Positions 830 to 63,177 of a stretch of DNA of 64,000 nucleotides are shown here, piece by piece. Each line of letters opens with the position of its first letter. The stretch's first letter is position 1. The stretch is taken from positions 3,367-67,366 of the forward strand of contig CAYZSU010000002.1 in assembly GCA_964480565.1 (NCBI GenBank), read 5' to 3'. Below the pieces are notes generated by a model. It worked only from the letters and a program-made list of their open reading frames with translations. It was not told where the DNA came from and ran no database searches. Position numbers and translations under genes: made by a program. The stretch comes from an uncultured Myxococcales bacterium (GTDB lineage Bacteria > UBA10199 > 2-02-FULL-44-16 > JAAZCA01).

Positions 830-2227
830 TTAATAAGGATATACGGGTGTCTCATAGGATGAATGGATCACTTCTTTTTGACTATCTTTGGAAGTCGTGT
901 CATTGGGTGTATCTTTTGAATTTTCTTTTAAAGATGGTTTTGTCGTATCACTAGTTTTTGACTTGCTCATTTCTTTTGGCAATGCAGGTTTTTTATCGGG
1001 CGACTCATAGGATGATGCCACGATAGGTTTTTCTTCTGCACGAATTTTTTTGGCCCGAGGCACATGATGCGCACCTGACAAAGGGGGTTGATAATTCTGA
1101 TACCGATATCCAGCTACATTGAAAATAACTCGGCGATTTAATGCCCTGCCTGTTTCAGTGTCATTCGATGCAATGGGATTGGATGCACCATAGGAAATAG
1201 GAGTTAATTTTACATTGGCGCGCACATTCATTTTTTTCATATACTGAATGACAATACGCGCACGATGTTTGGAAATAATCTGATTGGCAGAAAAGCTCCC
1301 CACTGCATCTGCATTTCCACCCACACGAATTTCCTGAATCCACGTATTTTTATTCACTGTATCCACAACTTGAGAAATACCCTCTTTGGCCGCATTGTTT
1401 AAAGACGCACTATTAAATCCAAAGTATACCGGCTGTATGGTTTTAATTTCACCGCCCGATACAACACCTTTGCCTGTTTCTGGACATCCATCCTGGTCGG
1501 CAAAGTTATTAATTGTTTCTTTGATGCGCGGACATTTATCCAAATAATCATTAATGCCATCTGCATCTGTATCTAGTTTAGCCAACTCCATCATGGCCAT
1601 CCACTGTTGATCGCCATAATTATCGCGAAGCACATAAAATTTTGGGCACGATGCACTATCCACGCCATGCACATAGTTATCCGCATTGGCAGGACATTCA
1701 TCTACCATAGAAATAGCCGTCTTTAAATCATAATACTTGGGACATGCCGTATCATGATATTCATGCCGAAAATCAGCCGCATTATCCGGACAGCGCATTT
1801 CCATTTCTGACACGCTTAATGTATAAATCGAATGAATTTCACTCATTGAAAAATTATCGCTTAATTGAAAAACCTTGGGACATGCGGCATCATGGCGCGC
1901 TGGATCAAACTGATTTTCATCCGCTGGGCAGCGTAACACAAGATCCGATAAATCACGCAATTCATAGTATTTTAAGCATGATTCTTCATGAACCGATTTA
2001 TTATAATGATTGGGATCATCCGGACAATTGGTTTTTAAATCCTGCAATTCCACATAATTCATTTGCGGTGAAAATTTTAGCTGACAGGTAAATGCATCGG
2101 CTTGCGCCTTAGTTTTAAATTCATTAGTCATAAATCGATAGGATAATCCCAAATTTCCACGCACTTTTGCGCCCTTCACTCCACAAACCAAACACGTTCC
2201 TGCCCCTGCCACCATGGATAATCCCAA
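830..2227 (-). CDS. OmpA-family protein, C-terminal part. It has Cys-rich and thrombospondin-type-3-like Asp repeats, an OmpA_C peptidoglycan-binding domain and a Lys/Ser/Thr-rich tail. It probably continues from the upstream beta-barrel ORF through a frameshift.
   Basis: Repeats DTDADGINDYLDKCP and DQDGCPE. OmpA_C-like block NSASL...GGNADAVGS...NRRVIF. The frame opens only at 2242, there is no signal peptide, and the N-terminal residues GNLGLSYRF look like a terminal OMP beta-strand. Confidence 0.65.
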   Translation of the reverse strand: MGLSMVAGAGTCLVCGVKGAKVRGNLGLSYRFMTNEFKTKAQADAFTCQLKFSPQMNYVELQDLKTNCPDDPNHYNKSVHEESCLKYYELRDLSDLVLRCPADENQFDPARHDAACPKVFQLSDNFSMSEIHSIYTLSVSEMEMRCPDNAADFRHEYHDTACPKYYDLKTAISMVDECPANADNYVHGVDSASCPKFYVLRDNYGDQQWMAMMELAKLDTDADGINDYLDKCPRIKETINNFADQDGCPETGKGVVSGGEIKTIQPVYFGFNSASLNNAAKEGISQVVDTVNKNTWIQEIRVGGNADAVGSFSANQIISKHRARIVIQYMKKMNVRANVKLTPISYGASNPIASNDTETGRALNRRVIFNVAGYRYQNYQPPLSGAHHVPRAKKIRAEEKPIVASSYESPDKKPALPKEMSKSKTSDTTKPSLKENSKDTPNDTTSKDSQKEVIHSSYETPVYPY

Positions 2228-3182
2228 TTTTTTTATCTGATATCAGAGCCTCTGCTGGCGCTAAATCACGATCTCTAAAAAACTTATCATTAACCGATGT
2301 CATGGCATTCACTTCAGCAGCCACATGCCATGCTTGACTTAACTGTCCTGAAACACCCGCACCCAATGACAATAGATGTTGATAATTGATATTTTGAATA
2401 CTTACTTTTTTGCCTGTACGAAAACCCAGATTCACAGCAATACCCAGTTTAGAATGTGGATAGATATCCAGTGCAGCCTTCATACCACCGGTAATACCTG
2501 CATCACCAGTATAGTGAGTATCGCTACCTGTTGGAACAGTAATAAATGGCATTAATGCCACACCAATGGGTGATTTACATGCGCCTAGCAACTTACTCTT
2601 CAACTCAATGCGCAAATCCCCCACATCAATCTGTGTATTAAGCGATGTAGTTGACCTGTCCAAAGGCGATTTAAATGAATTATATAGTACAAATGGCATA
2701 TCAATGCCCAATTGCAACCACGGCATAATGCCCACCGCAGCGGTTAAATCACTGACCAGTAAATGATCGATTACCCCACGGGCACGAAAGTTACTGCTTT
2801 TTACCTGCATGGGTTTAAATGCATAGGAATGATGCATACCCACTAAAAACTGTTTGGCATACAAACTCTCTGATCCGCTAAGCATGGAATATGATGATGG
2901 ACCAATCACAGGTTGATGGAAAATACCATTAAATGTTTGCGAAGCTGCAAATGCATGGCCATGCATTATTGCAAGCATGCCAAAGGTCAAACAAATGAGA
3001 TTGTTGAAAAGCACCCATCTTCGGTGTTTCCCGCTACACCCGTAATCCTTAACAACTCGCATGGTCGCTCGGCCCACGGATTTACGGGCGCCTTGAATCT
3101 GGGCATTTTTGAATAACCCCACAAATTGTCCATTTTTCAATAGTCCCCAAATGAATAGGATTTTTCGATATGAATATGTCAC
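2124..3182 (-). CDS. Beta-barrel-like N-terminal part of the OmpA-family protein. Its signal-peptide region carries an in-frame MITE insertion; the ancestral start is GTG at 3182 with an AAGAGG Shine-Dalgarno sequence. Alternative internal starts at 3062 (ATG inside the MITE) or 2978.
   Basis: Alternating amphipathic beta-strand pattern (KAALDIYPHSKLGIAVNLGFRTG; LSLGAGVSGQLSQAWHVAAEVNAM). Residues 12-61 are a translation of repeat copy A. The reconstructed pre-insertion N-terminus VTYSYRKILFICLTFGMLAIMHGHAFA|AS is a clean signal peptide. Confidence 0.5.
   Translation of the reverse strand: MTYSYRKILFIWGLLKNGQFVGLFKNAQIQGARKSVGRATMRVVKDYGCSGKHRRWVLFNNLICLTFGMLAIMHGHAFAASQTFNGIFHQPVIGPSSYSMLSGSESLYAKQFLVGMHHSYAFKPMQVKSSNFRARGVIDHLLVSDLTAAVGIMPWLQLGIDMPFVLYNSFKSPLDRSTTSLNTQIDVGDLRIELKSKLLGACKSPIGVALMPFITVPTGSDTHYTGDAGITGGMKAALDIYPHSKLGIAVNLGFRTGKKVSIQNINYQHLLSLGAGVSGQLSQAWHVAAEVNAMTSVNDKFFRDRDLAPAEALISDKKIGIIHGGRGRNVFGLWSEGRKSAWKFGIILSIYD
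2999..3147 (+). mobile_element. MITE-like dispersed repeat, copy A (core type 1). Flanked by a direct duplication CAAATGA (2992-2998 and 3148-3154).
   Basis: Shares GATTGTTGAAAAG-CACCCATCTTCGGTGTTTCCCGCTACACCCG...TCTGGGCATTTTTGAA...CAATAGTCCC with copies at 27861, 31693 and 32744. Termini are inverted; flanks are target-site-duplication-like. Confidence 0.8.
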
Positions 3183-4889: not shown

Positions 4890-5681
4890 TTAACTTTCAT
4901 TTGTTGAAATTGTATCGGACACAATATCAAATGCAATGAGGTATTCTTTATTCCCTTTAGATCCACAAATAGGTGATTTTGAAACACCTTTACAAATCCA
5001 ATGACATTGCTCACCTTGTTTTTTTATCGATTCAATCACTCGCTGATGCACTGACAAATCACGCACTATACCTTTTTTGCCGATAAATTGACGACCTGCT
5101 TCAAATTGTGGTTTAATTAAGGCAATGAGTTGACAAGGCTTGGTAATAAAGCGCGCTATTTCTGGAAATATATGTGCCAAGGAAATAAAAGACACATCAA
5201 TCACAAATAAATCAATTGGATCCGTCAGTGATTGAACATTTAAATCACGAATATCTGTTTTTTCCATGGATATAATACGTGAATCACTACGCAAACTATC
5301 GGCCAATTGATCACGGCCAACATCAATGGCAATCACTTTTTGCGCATGATGTTGAACTAAGCAATCGCTAAAACCACCCGTTGATGCACCAATATCCATG
5401 CATATAAAACTTTTCGGATTAATTTTAAAAAAATCAAGCGCATGCGCGAGTTTTATTCCAGCACGGCCTACATAGGGATGATCACTACCTTGTATTGTAA
5501 TTAGCGCATCATGGGATACCGCATAACTGGGTTTTGTAATACATTGATTGTCAACAAATACACATTCCGATTGAATCAACGATTTTGCCCGCTGGCGCGA
5601 CAATGCCAATTTTTTAGCAACCAACATATTATCAATACGTTCTTTATAATTGGATTGTGCCATGGCATTCAGATCAATCAA
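4890..5681 (-). CDS. tlyA: TlyA-family rRNA 2'-O-methyltransferase (hemolysin A)
   Basis: N-terminal S4-like domain plus FtsJ-like methyltransferase block GRAGIKLAHALDFF...CMDIGASTGGFSDCL...VIAIDVG. Confidence 0.8.
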   Translation of the reverse strand: MIDLNAMAQSNYKERIDNMLVAKKLALSRQRAKSLIQSECVFVDNQCITKPSYAVSHDALITIQGSDHPYVGRAGIKLAHALDFFKINPKSFICMDIGASTGGFSDCLVQHHAQKVIAIDVGRDQLADSLRSDSRIISMEKTDIRDLNVQSLTDPIDLFVIDVSFISLAHIFPEIARFITKPCQLIALIKPQFEAGRQFIGKKGIVRDLSVHQRVIESIKKQGEQCHWICKGVSKSPICGSKGNKEYLIAFDIVSDTISTNES

Positions 5682-14079: not shown

Positions 14080-15003
14080 TCATTTGCCAACTATCTTCAA
14101 ACGTGGCTCCAATACAATCCCTGCATACTGCTTAATGCGATCTCTGACCAAATTCATCAAGACGACAATATGATTGGCTGTGGCCTGACCTTCATTGATA
14201 ATAAAATTTCCATGCGTATCACTGACTCGTGCACCACCAATACGTATTCCGCATAAATTCATATCGTCAATAAGTGCCGCAACATTACTGCGTCCTACAT
14301 TTTGAAATAGAGGACCAATTGAAATAACACCATCCTCTAGCAATGCTTTCTTTTTTTCTGTTGCTAAACAAATATTTTTTTTCACTGTCGCTGAATCACT
14401 TTTTTTAAGCATTACACAAACATGAGACAAATATGATGTCTGTGGTATTTTAAGACGCTTATCATCGAACTTCAGTGATTTTCTTCTAATCGAAATTTCT
14501 TTACCCGCTCTATTTATTACACTCACTCCCGTTACATAGGTATCTATTTTTTCTGAATCACTAATATCCACCTTTTGCATCACAGCACCACCAATTGACC
14601 CCGCATACAATGCCAAACCTTCAATACCTGTTAATGCATGTGTATCACAAAAATTTAATACATCCGAAATTTTCATGCTCGATGTAATACGAAGACTGAC
14701 AAAATCATCGCCATTTTCAATAATATGACAATCACTATCCAAATCCTCCAAATCCACTACCAAACCATTTAATCCGCCATCCCGTATAATGGACTTGGAT
14801 CCATAGCAGATAAAATGATAATCAATAGCATGCTCATTGGCCCAGCGTACAGCGGATTTCACATCATCTATGGTCTTAACTCGAATATAACTTTCTGCAC
14901 ATCCACCAATATGTGTGACTGTCTTTTCAGACATTGGCACATTAAATGACACATCATTAGCCACAAACAATGTTGACAAGGATCGCTTTTGATCACGAGT
15001 CAT
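14080..15003 (-). CDS. murB: UDP-N-acetylenolpyruvoylglucosamine reductase MurB. The start is chosen at the ATG at 15003; the longer ORF back to 15234 overlaps the murC 3' end.
   Basis: FAD-binding region THIGGCAESYIRV and a MurB C-terminal domain. A 308-aa product matches typical MurB length. Confidence 0.8.
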   Translation of the reverse strand: MTRDQKRSLSTLFVANDVSFNVPMSEKTVTHIGGCAESYIRVKTIDDVKSAVRWANEHAIDYHFICYGSKSIIRDGGLNGLVVDLEDLDSDCHIIENGDDFVSLRITSSMKISDVLNFCDTHALTGIEGLALYAGSIGGAVMQKVDISDSEKIDTYVTGVSVINRAGKEISIRRKSLKFDDKRLKIPQTSYLSHVCVMLKKSDSATVKKNICLATEKKKALLEDGVISIGPLFQNVGRSNVAALIDDMNLCGIRIGGARVSDTHGNFIINEGQATANHIVVLMNLVRDRIKQYAGIVLEPRLKIVGK

Positions 15004-15062
15004 ATGTATGACTTCTTCCTGTTGGCGTTCAAAACGCGCTTTTTCACGTGCACTAAATGCGC

Positions 15063-16451
15063 TTAAATCAAGCTCTTCGCAAACATCTTCGCTACATTGG
15101 TGACGTTGCCCGCTCCCAAAAATAGTATCAGATCCGTTTTCAGGTACAGAGGCGCTAGCACTTCCATCACCGCTTGCATTGTCGGTGCAAATTGAATCGT
15201 TTTCTTTGGATAAGTCCTGCATACGTCTTTCCATAATTTTTCTCCTGAAAACTGTTTATCCTGTTTTTCCCCTGCAGCATAAACATCCATAATAATTATT
15301 ATATCCGCTAATTTTAATGAATCGATAAATTCATTATAAAACTGCTTGAGCCTGGAATATCGATGCGGCTGCATAACCACTACACGGCGTTTACGCGGCC
15401 AGCCTTTTTTTACAGCCACAAGTGTTGCATCTATTTCCACGGGATGATGTGCATAATCATCCACCACAATAGGGTTTGCATGATGCAAAATATCAAAACG
15501 TCGCTTAATGCCGCTAAAACTTTTTAACGCCAATCGAATAGCGCTAAAAGATACATCCAAATGCCTGGCAGCCGCAATGGTTGCTAGTGCATTTTGAATA
15601 TGATGCATTCCGCACATACACAAATCAATACGGCCCAAGCATTGAGTTTGAAAATAGGCATCAAAATGTACAGATGCCCCATTTTGCTCTATATTTTTTG
15701 CATGATAATCCGAATGCGCACGACCATAGGTAATCACCGGGGTTTGAATGCGTTTTATAATTCGTCTAATCACAGGATGTGCATCGCATACAATAGCTGC
15801 GCCATAAAAGGGTACTTTGTTCGCAAAGTCAATATATGCCTGCTGCATATCGTCAAAATTCGTATAATTTTCCATATGTTCGGGATCTATATTGGTAATT
15901 ATCCCAATTGTTGGCGTTAATTTCAGAAAAGATCGATCCGATTCATCCGCTTCTGCTACTAGAAAATCACCTTGCCCCAGCTTGGCATTGGATTGAAAAT
16001 TATTCACCTTGCCGCCGATAATAACCGTAGGATCCACATCCGATTTATGCAATACATGTCCAATCATTGATGTTGTGGATGTTTTTCCATGTGTCCCAGC
16101 AACAGCAATGCCATATTTTAATCGCATCAACTCTGCCAACATCGCGGCTCGTGGTACAACGACGATATTTTGTTTTTTCGCAGCCATCACTTCAGGGTTA
16201 GTCTTTGATATTGCAGAAGACACCACTATCACATGTGCATTGGCTATATTTACCTCATCATGCCCGCTAAAAATTTGCGCGCCCATGTGTTTTAACCGCG
16301 CAGTAGTATCACTCAAACAAGCATCAGAGCCACTCACATGATAGCCCAAGTTAATTAGCACTTCCGCAATACCGCTCATGCCGATACCACCGATGCCAAT
16401 AAAGTGAATATGTCTATATTTTTTAAACATAATTTTATACGGTCTCATCAA
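15063..16451 (-). CDS. murC: UDP-N-acetylmuramate--L-alanine ligase
   Basis: Mur ligase motifs FIGIGGIGMSGIA and GTHGKTSTTSMI. Confidence 0.9.
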   Translation of the reverse strand: MMRPYKIMFKKYRHIHFIGIGGIGMSGIAEVLINLGYHVSGSDACLSDTTARLKHMGAQIFSGHDEVNIANAHVIVVSSAISKTNPEVMAAKKQNIVVVPRAAMLAELMRLKYGIAVAGTHGKTSTTSMIGHVLHKSDVDPTVIIGGKVNNFQSNAKLGQGDFLVAEADESDRSFLKLTPTIGIITNIDPEHMENYTNFDDMQQAYIDFANKVPFYGAAIVCDAHPVIRRIIKRIQTPVITYGRAHSDYHAKNIEQNGASVHFDAYFQTQCLGRIDLCMCGMHHIQNALATIAAARHLDVSFSAIRLALKSFSGIKRRFDILHHANPIVVDDYAHHPVEIDATLVAVKKGWPRKRRVVVMQPHRYSRLKQFYNEFIDSLKLADIIIIMDVYAAGEKQDKQFSGEKLWKDVCRTYPKKTIQFAPTMQAVMEVLAPLYLKTDLILFLGAGNVTNVAKMFAKSLI

Positions 16452-27846: not shown

Positions 27847-27860
27847 TTATTTCAATAGTG

Positions 27861-28009
27861 GGGCTGTTGAAAAATGCCCATCTTCGGTGTTTCCCGCTAC
27901 ACCCGCAATCCTCACGTACTCGCATGTACGCTCCGGTTACGGGTTTGCGGAAGCCTAGAATCTGGGCATTTTTGAACAACCCCTAAAATTGCTATTTCTC
28001 AACAGTCCC
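27861..28009 (+). mobile_element. MITE-like dispersed repeat, copy B (core type 1). Perfect 6-bp direct duplication ATAGTG (27855-27860 and 28010-28015).
   Basis: GGGCTGTTGAAAAATGCCCATCTTCGGTGTTTCCCGCTACACCCGCAATCC...TCTGGGCATTTTTGAACAACCCCTAAAATTGCTATTTCTCAACAGTCCC. Termini are mutual reverse complements. Confidence 0.85.
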
Positions 28010-28058
28010 ATAGTGAAAGCGCCTAAAAAACATCCCTTCCTTAGGCCAGTCTGCCCAC

Positions 28059-31665: not shown

Positions 31666-31692
31666 AACCAACTCAACAACTAATTACACTAT

Positions 31693-31843
31693 GGGACTGG
31701 TGAAAAATAGCAATTTGTGGGGTTGTTCAAAAATGTCCAGATTCAAGGCCTCCCGCAAACTCGTAACCGGAGCGTACATGCGAGTACGTGAGGATTGCGA
31801 GTGTAGCGGGAAACACAGAAGATGGGCGTTTTTCAACAACCCC
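31693..31843 (-). mobile_element. MITE-like dispersed repeat, copy C (core type 1, inverted orientation). Direct duplication (C)ACTAT at 31687-31692 and 31843/31844-31848.
   Basis: Reverse complement of copy B along its whole length (GGGACTGGTGAAAAATAGCAATTTGTGGGGTTGTTCAAAAATGTCCAGATTC...GAAGATGGGCGTTTTTCAACAACCC). Confidence 0.8.
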
Positions 31844-31868
31844 ACTATCAATACACTATGATTTCACA

Positions 31869-32130: not shown

Positions 32131-32217
32131 GGGGAGGTGGCCGAGTGGCTGAAGGCGGCACCCTGCTAAGGTGTTATACGGGAGACCGTATCGAGGGTTC
32201 AAATCCCTCCCTCTCCG
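32131..32217 (+). tRNA. tRNA-Ser (anticodon GCU), long variable arm. CCA not encoded.
   Basis: Folded by hand. Acceptor stem GGGGAGG/CCTCTCC (one G-U pair). D-arm GCCGAGTGGCTGAAGGC. Anticodon loop CTGCTAA. T-arm GAGGGTTCAAATCCCTC. Discriminator G. Confidence 0.9.
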
Positions 32218-32354: not shown

Positions 32355-33565
32355 ATGAATAAAAAGGGACTCCAAAAAATCGGATACGATGAACGAATAG
32401 ACAGTGTAAGCGGTGAATACCTTCAGGACGGGTTTACGATTGCCAGAATAATCGAGGTAAAAATAGCTATACCGTATCAAATGGTCGTCATGAGATGCCG
32501 GCAGAACTCTGCGGTAAATTTCTATTTGATATAGAGAATACAAGCAATTTTCCGACTGTCGGTGACTGGGTAACAATACAGGCCCTTTCTGATAATGCAC
32601 TTGCCCTTATCCACTCTGTCTTGCCGCGCAAGACGCTATTGAAGTGTAAAGAAGCTGGCAGAAAAATAGCATTCCAGCTGATTGCTGCCAATATAGACAT
32701 CGGATTAATCGTACAACCAGCAGATCAGATTAACCTGCTGGATGGGACTGTTGAAAAACGCCCATCTTCGGTGTTGTTCAGCAAATTCAATTCAGTTACA
32801 TACTCGTATGTATGCGCCTTCATTGAATTTGCTGTCCGCCTAGAATCTGGGCATTTTTGAACAGCCCCTAAAATACCTATTTCTCAACAGTCCCTGGATA
32901 GGTATTGCGCGATGCTATAATGAGAGCGATATACAACCTATAGCGGTATTTACGAAAAAAGATCTGATCCCACCTGATGAGATCTCATCCATACAAAATG
33001 ACCTTGCCATGTTACACATGCAATATGTGTTTATCAGCAATGCCGTCAAAGGTGGAGAAACGGATCTATCCAAAAATCTCGTTTCAGGTAAAACATATTG
33101 TTTACTTGGCAAATCCGGAGTCGGCAAGACATCCCTTCTCAATCGATTGCTTCATAGTGATGAGTTCAAAGTAAATAATGTTCGAAAAAAAGATGGAAAA
33201 GGAAAGCATACCACTACAAAACGACAGCTGGTGTGTCTTGATTCCGGCAGCATCTTCATTGATACACCAGGCATGCGAGAACTTGGAAATTTTAAAATAA
33301 ACAAAGGCATCGATGAAACGTTTGAAGAGTTCTCTTTGCTAGCATTATCCTGTCGCTTCAAAAATTGTACCCATAACCACGAAGAGGGATGCGCAGTTCT
33401 TGACGCTATCTCACGGGGAAAATCGAACAAACTAGATATGATAATTTTTTAAAGCTCAAACGAGAGGCAGAATTCTATGACATGTCATATCATGAAAAGC
33501 GCCATAAGGATAAATCCTTTGGAAAAATGATAAAACAGTACAAAAAATTTAAAAATCAGCAATAG
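32355..33565 (+). pseudogene. rsgA: rsgA (ribosome small-subunit-dependent GTPase A) pseudogene, split by MITE copy D and at least three frameshifts
   Basis: RsgA blocks recovered in three different frames: OB domain (...CGKFLFDI...PTVGDWV), IAANIDIGLIV / LDRY / IAVFTKKDL, G domain (GKSGVGKTSLLN, GKGKHTTT, DTPG), zinc finger (CRFKNCTHNHEEGCAV) and tail RYDNFLKLKRE. Confidence 0.75.
32744..32893 (+). mobile_element. MITE-like dispersed repeat, copy D (core type 2), inserted inside rsgA. Direct duplication (C)TGGAT at 32738-32743 and 32894-32899.
   Basis: GGGACTGTTGAAAAACGCCCATCTTCGGTGTTGTTCAG...TCTGGGCATTTTTGAACAGCCCCTAAAATACCTATTTCTCAACAGTCC. Same termini as copies A-C but a different core. 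Confidence 0.8.
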
Positions 33566-54686: not shown

Positions 54687-54702
54687 ATAATGGGATTGCC
54701 AT

Positions 54703-54726
54703 CAAAATGCCCATCTTCGGTGTTTC
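54703..54726 (+). repeat. Solo fragment of the MITE left terminus
   Basis: CAAAATGCCCATCTTCGGTGTTTC matches the left end of copies A and B. Confidence 0.5.
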
Positions 54727-54744
54727 AAAGATAATCCATAACTA

Positions 54745-55596
54745 TCACTCTAACATATTCGAAATAGATACAACTTGATTGAATTCTGGATATGACACAA
54801 TCCATTGATTTTGATTCTTATGATATCTAATATGATATGCAGGATAATGCGTATGCATTGCATGCTGCATGATATTACTGGAATTAACTTGAAAGACACC
54901 CGTCAATGCAGATGATGTAATAAATAATGATTCATCATGAACCACACAATCATATGCATTTTGAACCATTATTTCTGAAAGAAATTGCCGTTTCCCTTGC
55001 TTGTCATACATAAACAATGATGCACTTTGTGATGACGTAATATAATAGACTTTTTGTTGCTCATGCCAGCACATATTTTGGGGCTGATTTAATCTTACAT
55101 TCGCAATATATACTTGGGTTTGTTTTTTTTCTCGATCATATACCCAAATCGTATTTCTACCACTATCCACCAAAAGAATTTGCTGTTTTCCAACTGTTTT
55201 CACAGATTTAATATGCCCAAAATTAATATTCTCAGTCGATTGAATGGCATATAAGAATTTTTTTCGTTTTAAATTATAGACAAGAACACGATCAATATCA
55301 GCAATAATCAATTTATTCCCTGAAATGGCCATTCCCTTTGGTGCATGAAGTACATTATGTTTGTTGGATGATATAAAATACATATCATCGATTTTCCCAG
55401 AAGGATGAATGCGAGAAATAAATCCATTTTTATCCTTTGCATCAACGTCACCATTTACATTGGACACATAAATATACCCCTCCGCATCAATCACTAACCC
55501 CATAGGCCTGGAAAAGCCATTCAATTCAAATGACATTGCTTGCAATGATATAGCCATCAAAACTAGCCATAAACCAATACTACTGCACAGTCCCAT
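54745..55596 (-). CDS. Secreted NHL/SGL-like beta-propeller repeat protein (hypothetical)
   Basis: Signal peptide. Repeated blocks GLVIDAEGYIYVSN, MAISGNKLIIADID and YYITSSQSASLFMYD. Confidence 0.4.
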   Translation of the reverse strand: MGLCSSIGLWLVLMAISLQAMSFELNGFSRPMGLVIDAEGYIYVSNVNGDVDAKDKNGFISRIHPSGKIDDMYFISSNKHNVLHAPKGMAISGNKLIIADIDRVLVYNLKRKKFLYAIQSTENINFGHIKSVKTVGKQQILLVDSGRNTIWVYDREKKQTQVYIANVRLNQPQNMCWHEQQKVYYITSSQSASLFMYDKQGKRQFLSEIMVQNAYDCVVHDESLFITSSALTGVFQVNSSNIMQHAMHTHYPAYHIRYHKNQNQWIVSYPEFNQVVSISNMLE

Positions 55597-62312: not shown

Positions 62313-62390
62313 AGATCCTCCTTCCGGGTCTTAAAAATAAGCTCTGGGCCAATCCCAGAACTAAGGAGACTGATAAGTCTTTAATTTAAT

Positions 62391-62610
62391 GGGTTTTTTT
62401 AAAAACGCCCATCATCAGTGTTATTCAGTAAATTCAATTCAGTAGCATATTCTTATGGTTGCGCTCTCATTGAATTTTCTGTTTAGCGATGTGACAACCT
62501 GAGTGTTTGCATTCGCAAATAGCCAAGCTGATCAAGCGCTTATGCATTACTGACAGTGAAAATATAATAGTCGCTGTCTGCTTAAAACCTGGATATTTTT
62601 GAACAGTTCC
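62391..62610 (+). mobile_element. Long mosaic MITE variant (copy F). It has the type-2 left end plus a ~75-bp extra core module, and a truncated/divergent right end that abuts the pth stop codon.
   Basis: GGGTTTTTTTAAAAACGCCCATCATCAGTGTTATTCAG... matches copy D. The middle matches 31911-32040. The end is ...GGATATTTTTGAACAG. Confidence 0.65.
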
Positions 62611-63177
62611 TCAATTTGTATGAAATCGTTGTTGAACATCTGCAAGTGTCATATCGCTTACCAAACATTTAATTGCGCGACTTGCAGTATTAATCAACTC
62701 TTTCAATTGTATATCATCATTACTATCAAAGGCTTGCAATACATAATCCGCGGGATTCATATAATTTGGTGGTCTGCCAATGCCAAACCGAATGCGGTAT
62801 ATGTCCTTACTGCTAAGCATTTGATAAATTGACCGAATGCCATTGTGACCACCATGACCACGATTCGTATCAATTTTTATTTTTCCAAATGAAATATCTA
62901 GATCATCATGAATCACAATAATATCATGGCACTCTATTTTATAATACCCTGCAATACTAGCAACCGCTTCACCAGATAAATTCATAAATGTTTCTGGCTT
63001 AATCAATATGGCAGGCCGATTTTCAATTAGCCCTTTACCGATAAGTGACTTAAATTGCTTATTGCATACATCGATATTCCACTGACCTGCCAAGTAATCG
63101 ATTACATGAAAGCCAATATTATGGCGATGTCTAGAATATCGTCTACCCGGATTACCTAGTCCAACAATTAACTTCAT
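62611..63177 (-). CDS. pth: Peptidyl-tRNA hydrolase
   Basis: MKLIVGLGNPG...HNIGF... catalytic His/Asp blocks. Confidence 0.9.
   Translation of the reverse strand: MKLIVGLGNPGRRYSRHRHNIGFHVIDYLAGQWNIDVCNKQFKSLIGKGLIENRPAILIKPETFMNLSGEAVASIAGYYKIECHDIIVIHDDLDISFGKIKIDTNRGHGGHNGIRSIYQMLSSKDIYRIRFGIGRPPNYMNPADYVLQAFDSNDDIQLKELINTASRAIKCLVSDMTLADVQQRFHTN

What the first reader, a model, noticed from the sequence alone, without database searches (positions are those of the whole stretch)
2124..2242. OmpA-family gene split between two frames at a 15-nt direct repeat: frameshift or recoding site
The upstream beta-barrel-like ORF ends ...KKIGIIHGGRGRNVFGLWSEGRKSAWKFGIILSIYD*. This ending is not OMP-like.

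The +1 frame over the same nucleotides reads ...AGAGTCLVCGVKGAKVRGNLGLSYRF, an ideal terminal beta-strand with C-terminal Phe. That frame continues, without a signal peptide of its own, into the TSP3-like repeats and the OmpA_C domain (830-2227).

The +1 frame only opens at 2242. The two frames overlap across a duplicated AAATTGGGATTATCC / AAATTTGGGATTATCC segment (2232-2217 and 2147-2132).

The simplest model is one ~770-aa protein (barrel, TSP3 linker, OmpA_C; an architecture known from Bacteroidetes and Leptospira OmpA-like proteins) interrupted by a single frameshift.
Basis: partly seen in the sequence, partly recalled or inferred. Interest (0 to 1): 0.5.

Follow-up and report, generated by a model that had tools for sequence, protein, structure and literature searches.

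The report
Outer-membrane protein gene broken by 11-base deletion
The two overlapping reading frames are one roughly 747-residue OmpA-family outer-membrane protein gene that has lost 11 bases in this assembly, while otherwise identical DNA from related samples has the gene intact, so this is an ordinary knocked-out allele and not programmed recoding.

Summary
The split is real. On the minus strand, ORF 3182..2124 and ORF 2227..830 overlap in different frames.

The lesion is not at the 15-nt repeat and is not a recoding signal. Metagenome contigs L001/L003/L006 match the window over about 9 kb with 0 mismatches, but they carry 11 extra bases (CGGCATATGAT) between window 2237 and 2236. There the gene is one uninterrupted ORF (773 or 787 aa as called).

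All 47 more distant homologues (34-51% identity) are single proteins of 602-764 aa and are conserved straight across the junction.

A second assembly (ENA ERZ23498660) has the same deletion junction. Two other assemblies end 5 and 14 nt from it. The deletion is therefore most likely a genuine allele in a mixed natural population, but no reads were examined.

The AlphaFold2 model shows three parts: a 12-stranded barrel (FapF/COG4313-like, not the 8-stranded OmpA barrel), a helical cysteine-repeat linker, and an OmpA_C peptidoglycan-binding domain. The deletion lies in barrel strand 10. The 5' product lacks the last strands, and the 3' product lacks a signal peptide.

Verdict: an ordinary, very recent loss-of-function deletion. 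Low interest.

The parts
2237..3062 (-). 5' part of the gene in its original frame. The likely start is ATG 3062 (MRVVKDYGCSGKHRRWVLFNNLICLTFGMLAIMHGHAFA|ASQTFNG...). It covers the signal peptide, the N-terminal segment and barrel strands 1-9, plus the first half of strand 10.
   Evidence: ORF list and translation. 100% identical to L001/L003. AF2 model of the intact protein: helix 38-58 and strands from residue 98. The choice of start codon is an inference; callers used GTG 3182 or TTG 3140.
2236..2237 (-). Deletion junction. 11 nt (CGGCATATGAT on the coding strand) present in L001/L003/L006 are absent between G2237 and A2236. They encode the rest of Ala302 plus Ala-Tyr-Asp (residues 302-305 of P0001).
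   Evidence: DNA alignment. Junction strings from five assemblies. blastn: 0 mismatches and one 11-nt gap over 9151 nt against L001, 9193 nt against L003 and 8896 nt against L006.
2124..2235 (-). Out-of-frame tail of the 5' fragment. With the hybrid codon GAT (2237-2235) it adds 37 aberrant residues (DKKIGIIHGGRGRNVFGLWSEGRKSAWKFGIILSIYD) and then the stop TAA at 2126-2124.
   Evidence: Translation. The tail has no counterpart in any homologue.
830..2236 (-). 3' part of the gene in the original frame, starting at Ile306 (ATA 2236-2234). It holds the end of strand 10 and strands 11-12 up to GLSYRF (F340 = 2134-2132), a helical four-fold cysteine-repeat linker (about 2125-1577), one TSP3-like Ca-binding motif (about 1573-1523), the OmpA_C domain (about 1426-1133), a low-complexity Lys/Ser/Pro tail, and the stop at 832-830. 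It has no signal peptide of its own.
   Evidence: Domain limits come from the AF2 model and Pfam on P0001, converted to window coordinates by hand.
2228..2234 (-). A7 run (GAT AAA AAA ATT) just 3' of the junction. It is the same length in both alleles. It is the only place where a +1 slip could rejoin the frames (speculative).
   Evidence: Sequence.
2237..2246 (.). Perfect 10-nt palindrome CTGATATCAG that ends exactly at the deletion junction. The Logan contig L008 ends at its centre (window 2242).
   Evidence: Sequence. L008 end.
2216..2231 (-). Direct repeat copy 1 (AAAATTGGGATTATCC on the coding strand). It encodes K-LGLS at the start of strand 11.
2141..2156 (-). Direct repeat copy 2 (AAATTTGGGATTATCC on the coding strand). 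It encodes N-LGLS in strand 12.

Best explanation
Window 3062..830 (minus strand) is a single gene for an OmpA-family outer-membrane protein of about 747 residues. Its parts are a signal peptide, a 12-stranded beta-barrel, a helical cysteine-repeat linker with one TSP3-like motif, and an OmpA_C peptidoglycan-binding domain.

In the genome behind this window the gene carries an 11-nt deletion inside barrel strand 10, between window 2237 and 2236. The deletion shifts the frame and produces the two overlapping ORFs.

The deletion is most likely a genuine, very recent allele. It coexists in the sampled population with the intact allele.

The expected consequence is loss of function (inferred). The 5' product has 9.5 strands plus 37 nonsense residues and lacks the closing strands that end in ...GLSYRF. 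The 3' product has no signal peptide, so it would stay in the cytoplasm. No programmed frameshift or recoding is involved.
For: Shown:
1. L001 (JGI 3300009008), L003 and L006 (ENA ERZ23498639) match the window with 0 mismatches over 9151, 9193 and 8896 nt. The only difference is one 11-nt gap, CGGCATATGAT.
2. In those contigs the gene is one ORF, called as 773 aa (P0001) and 787 aa (P0069).
3. The 47 homologues at 34-51% identity are all single proteins of 602-764 aa. The alignment is conserved across the junction (...NPxEAMxGARWDIKKTGVSxxGGAGTCLVCGVKGARVRGVLGVKYRF...), including the deleted residues (AAYD, aligned with ARWD). The intact form is therefore ancestral.
4. The same deletion junction is in a second assembly of different length that differs by one SNP at window 5119: ENA ERZ23498660, scaffold_1093, 67,963 bp.
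5. Relative to L001/L003 that scaffold also carries an extra 77-nt tandem copy in a nearby intergenic region, outside the window.
6. Two further assemblies break next to the site. L002 starts at window 2222 and L008 ends at window 2242. This is what a mixed-allele branch in an assembly graph would tend to cause.
7. The AF2 model of the intact protein has mean pLDDT 81, with most of the barrel above 90. It shows 12 strands between residues 98 and 339, with the deletion in strand 10 (296-306).
8. The barrel resembles FapF, COG4313 and NanC. The C-terminal domain resembles YfiB, OprF and Pal.

Inferred: loss of function of both fragments.
Against: - No reads could be inspected, so the allele frequency and the reality of the deletion are not directly shown.
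- The two assemblies with the deletion may derive from the same sample's reads.
- The contig ends at 2242 and 2222 are near the junction but not exactly at it. A clean two-allele de Bruijn branch would break at 2237/2236.
- There is no microhomology at the junction that would explain how the deletion arose.
Confidence: 0.77

Rival explanations
1. The gene is intact in the organism, and the 11-nt gap is an assembly, consensus or library artefact of this metagenome-derived contig.
For: - The window comes from a 68,214-bp contig held by NCBI/ENA and found only alongside metagenome assemblies.
- Every other base over 9 kb equals the intact contigs.
- Two other assemblies break within 15 nt of the site, so the region is troublesome for assemblers.
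- A 10-nt palindrome abuts the junction.
Against: - The identical junction appears in a second assembly of different length with one SNP of difference. The same ENA pipeline produced the intact allele from the neighbouring sample.
- k-mer assemblers can only output a junction whose k-mers are present in reads (established knowledge of de Bruijn assembly).
- An 11-nt deletion is not a typical short-read error.
Confidence: 0.17
2. Programmed recoding. A +1 ribosomal slip or transcriptional slippage on the A7 run (2234-2228) joins the two frames. It would yield a near full-length protein (...ALISDKKLGLSM...) with strand 10 shortened by four residues.
For: - The A7 run lies in the frame-overlap zone, 2 nt after the junction.
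- A +1 slip of tRNA-Lys there gives exactly the downstream frame.
- A four-residue loss keeps the in/out alternation of a beta-strand (inference).
Against: - The frameshift is not conserved. Conspecific contigs and all 47 more distant homologues are in one frame.
- The A7 run has the same length in the intact allele, where no shift is needed.
- No stimulatory element was identified.
- A7 is short for efficient slippage (own knowledge).
- The deleted residues align with a conserved motif.
Confidence: 0.03
3. These are two genuine separate genes: a barrel-only outer-membrane protein and a separate OmpA_C protein.
For: The source annotation calls two CDSs, 352 aa and 440 aa.
Against: - The second ORF has no signal peptide or lipobox.
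- Its called start (TTG at 2152, MGLSYRF...) lies inside the last barrel strand.
- The first ORF ends in 37 residues with no homologue.
- No homologue is split.
- The intact allele differs by only 11 nt.
Confidence: 0.01

Closest known systems
OmpA family, C-terminal OmpA-like peptidoglycan-binding domain (Pfam PF00691; e.g. OprF, Pal, YfiB)
   Same: The C-terminal domain scores 51.5 bits against a gathering threshold of 27.2. The model superposes on YfiB, the OprF C-domain and Pal at 1.8-2.3 A with 23-31% identity. As in OmpA and OprF, a barrel with a terminal aromatic strand precedes a periplasmic anchor domain.
   Different: The N-terminal barrel has 12 strands, not 8, and gives no PF01389 (OmpA_membrane) hit. 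A helical linker of about 180 residues with four CP...CP repeats lies between the barrel and the anchor.
Myxococcus xanthus TraB (NCBIfam NF033763), partner of TraA in outer-membrane exchange
   Same: The order of parts is the same: signal peptide, N-terminal barrel, TSP3 motif(s), C-terminal OmpA domain (architecture of TraB from PMC12045341). TraB is the best NCBIfam hit (E = 6.6e-33, mainly residues 525-681). More distant homologues of this protein come from Myxococcales and Kofleriaceae MAGs.
   Different: The score is 113.5 bits against a cut-off of 700. None of the neighbouring genes has a PA14 domain hit that would suggest traA; the neighbours are a protein with no Pfam hit, a TlyA-like methyltransferase and an MBL-fold hydrolase. 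The long cysteine-repeat helical linker is not described for TraB.
12-stranded outer-membrane barrels: FapF (PDB 5o65/5o67/5o68), COG4313/Phenol_MetA_deg channel (PDB 4rl8, PF13557), NanC (2wjq)
   Same: These are the best structural matches to the N-terminal domain: Foldseek E = 8e-10 to 2e-7, with TM-score normalised to the target of 0.58-0.78. The strand count is 12.
   Different: Sequence identity is 9-14%. The window protein has no Pfam hit for this domain, and only 1 of 49 family members touches PF13557, at E = 0.002. None of those proteins carries a C-terminal OmpA domain (own knowledge).
Bacteroidetes OmpA with TSP3 repeats (Capnocytophaga gingivalis OmpA periplasmic portion, PDB 5wtl)
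   Same: The TSP3-plus-OmpA_C portion aligns over 164-182 columns at 27% identity.
   Different: Only one TSP3-like motif is present here and it is below Pfam's threshold. TM-scores for the whole periplasmic portion are low (0.35-0.38).
Frameshift-disrupted genes (pseudogenes or null alleles) in bacterial genomes and MAGs
   Same: An indel whose length is not a multiple of three splits one ORF into two overlapping ORFs. The intact allele is known from near-identical DNA.
   Different: Nothing substantive differs. The only unusual point is that the two alleles sit on otherwise identical 9-kb backgrounds, so the event is very recent.

Membership tests
OmpA family (PF00691 OmpA_C-like domain) | Match to the Pfam OmpA model above the gathering threshold | tested here: met
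   51.5 bits against 27.2 for the window ORF. All 49 of 49 aligned family members match.
OmpA family (PF00691 OmpA_C-like domain) | OmpA_C alpha/beta fold | tested here: met
   Model residues about 560-680 superpose on YfiB, OprF-C and Pal at rmsd 1.8-2.3 A.
Classical OmpA/OprF (8-stranded N-terminal barrel, PF01389) | 8-stranded OmpA_membrane barrel | tested here: not met
   No PF01389 hit. The AF2 model has 12 strands. The best structural matches are 12-stranded barrels.
TSP3 (thrombospondin type 3) repeat-containing OmpA proteins (PF02412) | TSP_3 repeats above the Pfam threshold | tested here: not met
   One motif (DTDADGINDYLDKCP) scores 18.4 or 17.6 bits against a cut-off of 25. 15 of 49 homologues match at E <= 0.01. 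The rest of the linker is a different repeat.
TraB outer membrane exchange protein (NF033763) | Score at or above the curated NCBIfam cut-off | tested here: not met
   113.5 bits against 700.
TraB outer membrane exchange protein (NF033763) | Adjacent traA partner gene (PA14-like domain, cysteine-rich repeats, MYXO-CTERM) | tested here: not met
   No neighbouring gene in L001/L003 has a PA14 hit among its recorded Pfam domains. Only the precomputed Pfam labels of the neighbours were examined.
FapF / COG4313 (PF13557) 12-stranded channels | 12-stranded barrel fold | tested here: met
   Foldseek E = 8e-10 to 2e-7, target-normalised TM-score 0.58-0.72. 12 strands in the model.
FapF / COG4313 (PF13557) 12-stranded channels | Sequence-family membership (Pfam PF13557 or a FapF model) | tested here: not met
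   The window protein has no hit. 1 of 49 members matches at E = 0.002.
Programmed ribosomal frameshift / recoding site | The frameshift is conserved in orthologues, so the shifted arrangement is the normal gene structure | tested here: not met
   Conspecific contigs and all 47 more distant homologues encode one uninterrupted ORF.
Programmed ribosomal frameshift / recoding site | Slippery site with a stimulatory element, and a demonstrated trans-frame product | not testable with these tools
   An A7 run is present at 2234-2228. No stimulator was identified and no expression data are available.
Phase variation by simple-sequence repeat slippage | The alleles differ by whole repeat units in a homopolymer or short tandem repeat | tested here: not met
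   The 11 nt (CGGCATATGAT) are unique sequence. The A7 run has the same length in both alleles.

The most novel reading that the evidence does not exclude
The deletion allele might not be a dead end. It could be one state of a standing on/off polymorphism of a surface-exposed barrel protein that coexists with the intact allele in the same samples, as the contig breaks at 2242 and 2222 hint. Occasional +1 slippage on the adjacent A7 run could then restore a low level of a protein four residues shorter.
Probability: 0.03. Interest if true: 0.4.

Novelty: already known. Interest (0 to 1): 0.12.

Why it matters
For annotation, the two CDSs called in the source record (352 aa and 440 aa) should be merged and flagged as one frameshifted OmpA-family gene. 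Neither fragment should enter protein family databases as a real protein.

For biology, the finding is at most a small example of a very recent null allele of an outer-membrane protein. It appears to segregate in a natural population of a deeply branching uncultured bacterium.

The protein family itself has a 12-stranded FapF/COG4313-like barrel, a cysteine-repeat helical linker and an OmpA_C domain. It is only partly covered by Pfam and could merit a family description. That point is independent of the frameshift.

Tried and rejected
- Junction scans. A pattern covering both alleles, and then a plain 35-mer from just downstream of the junction, were run against metagenome contigs and genome contigs.
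- Exact look-ups of P0067 and of the 263-aa TlyA-like ORF found no record. After it was retrieved as P0090, it proved to occur only in NCBI, JGI and ENA, not in Logan, so it offered no new contigs.
- Naming the organism failed. Cluster look-ups of six window proteins gave no names.
- Literature searches for the sample, run and contig accessions found nothing.
- Rfam gave no match at the locus: only a tRNA at 32131-32217 at gathering threshold, and only a chance-level hit on the upstream repeat element (E = 0.44).
- The 15-nt direct repeat was considered as the cause of the frameshift and rejected. It is unchanged in the intact allele, and the lesion lies 5 nt upstream of it.
- Deletion between the flanking TGATAT direct repeats was considered and rejected. 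That event would remove 16 nt and give CTGATATAAAAAAA, which is not what is observed.
- A paralogue in the window was sought with tblastn and none was found.
Full report
**1. The observation**

On the minus strand there are two overlapping ORFs. The first is 3182..2124 (352 aa). The second is 2227..830 (465 aa from the first TTG), and its frame opens at 2242, after a TGA at 2245-2243.

The upstream ORF ends in ...ALISDKKIGIIHGGRGRNVFGLWSEGRKSAWKFGIILSIYD*.

The downstream ORF carries an OmpA domain (PF00691, 51.5 bits against a cut-off of 27.2). It has one sub-threshold TSP3 motif (18.4 bits against 25). The upstream ORF matches no Pfam family.

The direct repeat is real, with 15 of 16 bases identical. 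Only two repeats of this quality within 150 nt occur in the whole window, against 0.1 expected in shuffles.

**2. What it is**

I joined the two frames conceptually at the A7 run to make a 743-aa query and searched it against the protein collection. It found 66 relatives.

- The best, P0001, is 99% identical over 100% of the query and is a single protein of 773 aa.
- The next 47 (34-51% identity) are all single proteins of 602-764 aa.
- The 90% cluster of P0001 holds five members: two intact products (773 aa from JGI, 787 aa from ENA), the two fragments called on the window's own 68,214-bp contig (352 and 440 aa), and a 461-aa product from a JGI contig.

The DNA settles the matter.

- L001 (JGI 3300009008, 31-kb contig, seen in two samples) and L003/L006 (ENA ERZ23498639, 47-kb scaffold) match the window with zero mismatches over 9151, 9193 and 8896 nt.
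- The single difference is an 11-nt gap. The window lacks CGGCATATGAT between G2237 and A2236.
- The intact allele reads ...CTG ATA TCA GCG GCA TAT GAT ATA AAA AAA TTG GGA... = ...L I S A A Y D I K K L G...
- The window reads ...CTG ATA TCA GAT AAA AAA ATT GGG...
- Eleven is not a multiple of three, so everything downstream is read out of frame.

In the alignment of 49 family members the junction region is among the best conserved (...NPxEAMxGARWDIKKTGVSxxGGAGTCLVCGVKGARVRGVLGVKYRF...). The deleted AAYD aligns with ARWD. The intact form is therefore ancestral and the window carries the derived, broken form.

The A7 run and the 15-nt repeat are identical in both alleles. Neither is the lesion.

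**3. Real allele or artefact?**

- The same junction is present in ENA ERZ23498660, scaffold_1093 (67,963 bp; L004/L005). That scaffold differs from the window by one SNP at window 5119.
- Relative to L001/L003 it also carries an extra 77-nt tandem copy in an intergenic region just outside the window.
- The same ENA pipeline produced the intact allele from the neighbouring BioSample.
- A k-mer assembler can only emit a junction that is present in reads (established knowledge).
- Two further assemblies stop right at this spot. JGI contig L002 begins at window 2222, 14 nt from the junction. This is why its gene was called as 461 aa from the first ATG.
- Logan contig L008 (SRR8062321) ends at window 2242, 5 nt from the junction and at the centre of the 10-nt palindrome CTGATATCAG.
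- By my rough estimate, two contig ends within 15 nt of one site are unlikely by chance: about 30 nt out of contigs 3-6 kb long, in each case. They suggest graph branching from mixed alleles.
- The ends are not exactly where a clean two-allele branch would break, and I could not look at reads.

I put about 0.77 on a genuine allele and about 0.17 on an artefact.

**4. The protein and the consequence of the deletion**

An AlphaFold2 model of the intact P0001, built with the 49-sequence alignment, has mean pLDDT 81, with most of the barrel above 90. It shows these parts:

- a signal-peptide helix (residues 38-58; AFA|ASQ at 63-66);
- twelve beta-strands between residues 98 and 339, the last ending ...NLGLSYRF;
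- a helical region (343-525) with four CP-x(14)-CP units, whose cysteines are invariant or nearly so in the family;
- one TSP3-like motif (527-543);
- an OmpA_C domain (about 560-680);
- a disordered Lys/Ser/Pro tail.

Foldseek against the PDB matches the barrel to 12-stranded barrels. These are FapF (E = 8e-10; target-normalised TM-score 0.58-0.72), the COG4313 channel 4rl8 and NanC. The C-terminal domain matches YfiB, OprF-C and Pal at about 1.8-2.3 A.

The deletion removes residues 302-305 in strand 10 (296-306). The effect on function is inferred, not shown.

- The 5' product has 9.5 strands plus 37 nonsense residues. It lacks the closing strands and the terminal aromatic strand, so it should fail to assemble.
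- The 3' product starts inside the barrel's last strands. It has no signal peptide or lipobox, so it should stay in the cytoplasm.

No other base has changed in the gene or in 9 kb around it, so the event is very recent. No paralogue is present in the window.

**5. Comparison with known families**

- The protein is a member of the OmpA_C superfamily by Pfam threshold and by fold.
- It is not a classical 8-stranded OmpA.
- Its best NCBIfam match is TraB of Myxococcus (113.5 bits), far below that model's cut-off of 700. TraB has the same order of parts: signal peptide, barrel, TSP3 repeats, OmpA domain (PMC12045341). No neighbouring gene has a PA14 domain hit that would suggest traA. It is TraB-like in layout but not a TraB.
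- As a phenomenon, the finding is a frameshift-disrupted gene. None of the defining features of programmed frameshifting (conservation of the shift) or of repeat-mediated phase variation (a change in unit number) is met.

**6. Context**

- The window has 38.7% G+C.
- Its MurB has no relative above 34% identity in the collection apart from itself.
- No source gives an organism name.
- The OmpA-like family is found mostly in MAGs labelled Myxococcales, Kofleriaceae or 'Pseudomonadota bacterium'.
- The organism is an uncultured, poorly sampled lineage, and I could not place it.

**7. Verdict**

The recoding alternative and the implied role of the direct repeat are not.

This is an ordinary, probably polymorphic, 11-nt loss-of-function deletion. 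Interest is low (0.12). The kind of event is already known.

The most novel reading still open is partial rescue by +1 slippage on the adjacent A7 run within an on/off polymorphism. I give it a probability of about 0.03.

Noticed in passing
window 2990-3160(-), 27858-28011(-), 31691-31845(+), 32741-32895(-); partial copies at 62389-62481, 62572-62617 and 54691-54746; also L001 12472-12590 and L002 5542-5634: A dispersed imperfect-palindrome repeat of about 155 nt (MITE/REP-like) with 70-82% identity between copies. Copy 4 carries a different central stretch that is again self-complementary. It has no Rfam family: the best hit is at chance level (E = 0.44). Copy 1 overlaps the 5' end of the OmpA-like gene, so the likely start codon ATG 3062 and the charged N-region of the signal peptide lie inside the element. 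Copies 3 and 4 flank the tRNA at 32131-32217. Logan contig L007 breaks inside copy 1, at window 3020.
   Followed up: partly
L004 about 5445-5600, against L001 9443-9520 (outside the window, beyond the MBL-fold gene that the window cuts at position 1): The contig that carries the deletion has an extra 77-nt tandem copy in the intergenic region, relative to the contigs with the intact gene. This is a second structural difference between two otherwise near-identical haplotypes.
   Followed up: no
window about 2125-1577 (-), residues 343-525 of P0001: The linker between barrel and OmpA domain is not made of TSP3 repeats. It is a four-fold repeat, roughly CP-x-D/N-x(3)-F/Y-x(5)-D-x(2)-CPK-[YF]-[YF]-x-L, that is predicted helical. 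Eight cysteines are invariant or nearly invariant across the family. It matches no Pfam model and may be an undescribed periplasmic disulfide-stabilised spacer module.
   Followed up: partly
window 2237-2246, with contig ends at 2242 (L008) and 2222 (L002): A perfect 10-nt palindrome, CTGATATCAG, ends exactly at the deletion junction. A Logan contig terminates at its centre, and a JGI contig starts 14 nt on the other side. A simple two-allele branch would break at 2237/2236, so a third variant or a local coverage drop may exist there.
   Followed up: partly
window 14080-15234 (-): This ORF is a MurB (UDP-N-acetylmuramate dehydrogenase; PF01565 + PF02873). Its closest non-self relative among 5.8 billion proteins is only 34% identical, which indicates a very poorly sampled lineage. 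The ORF map of the window shows no other pair of long same-strand ORFs resembling a split gene. A few overlaps look like over-extended start codons, but none was checked by homology.
   Followed up: no
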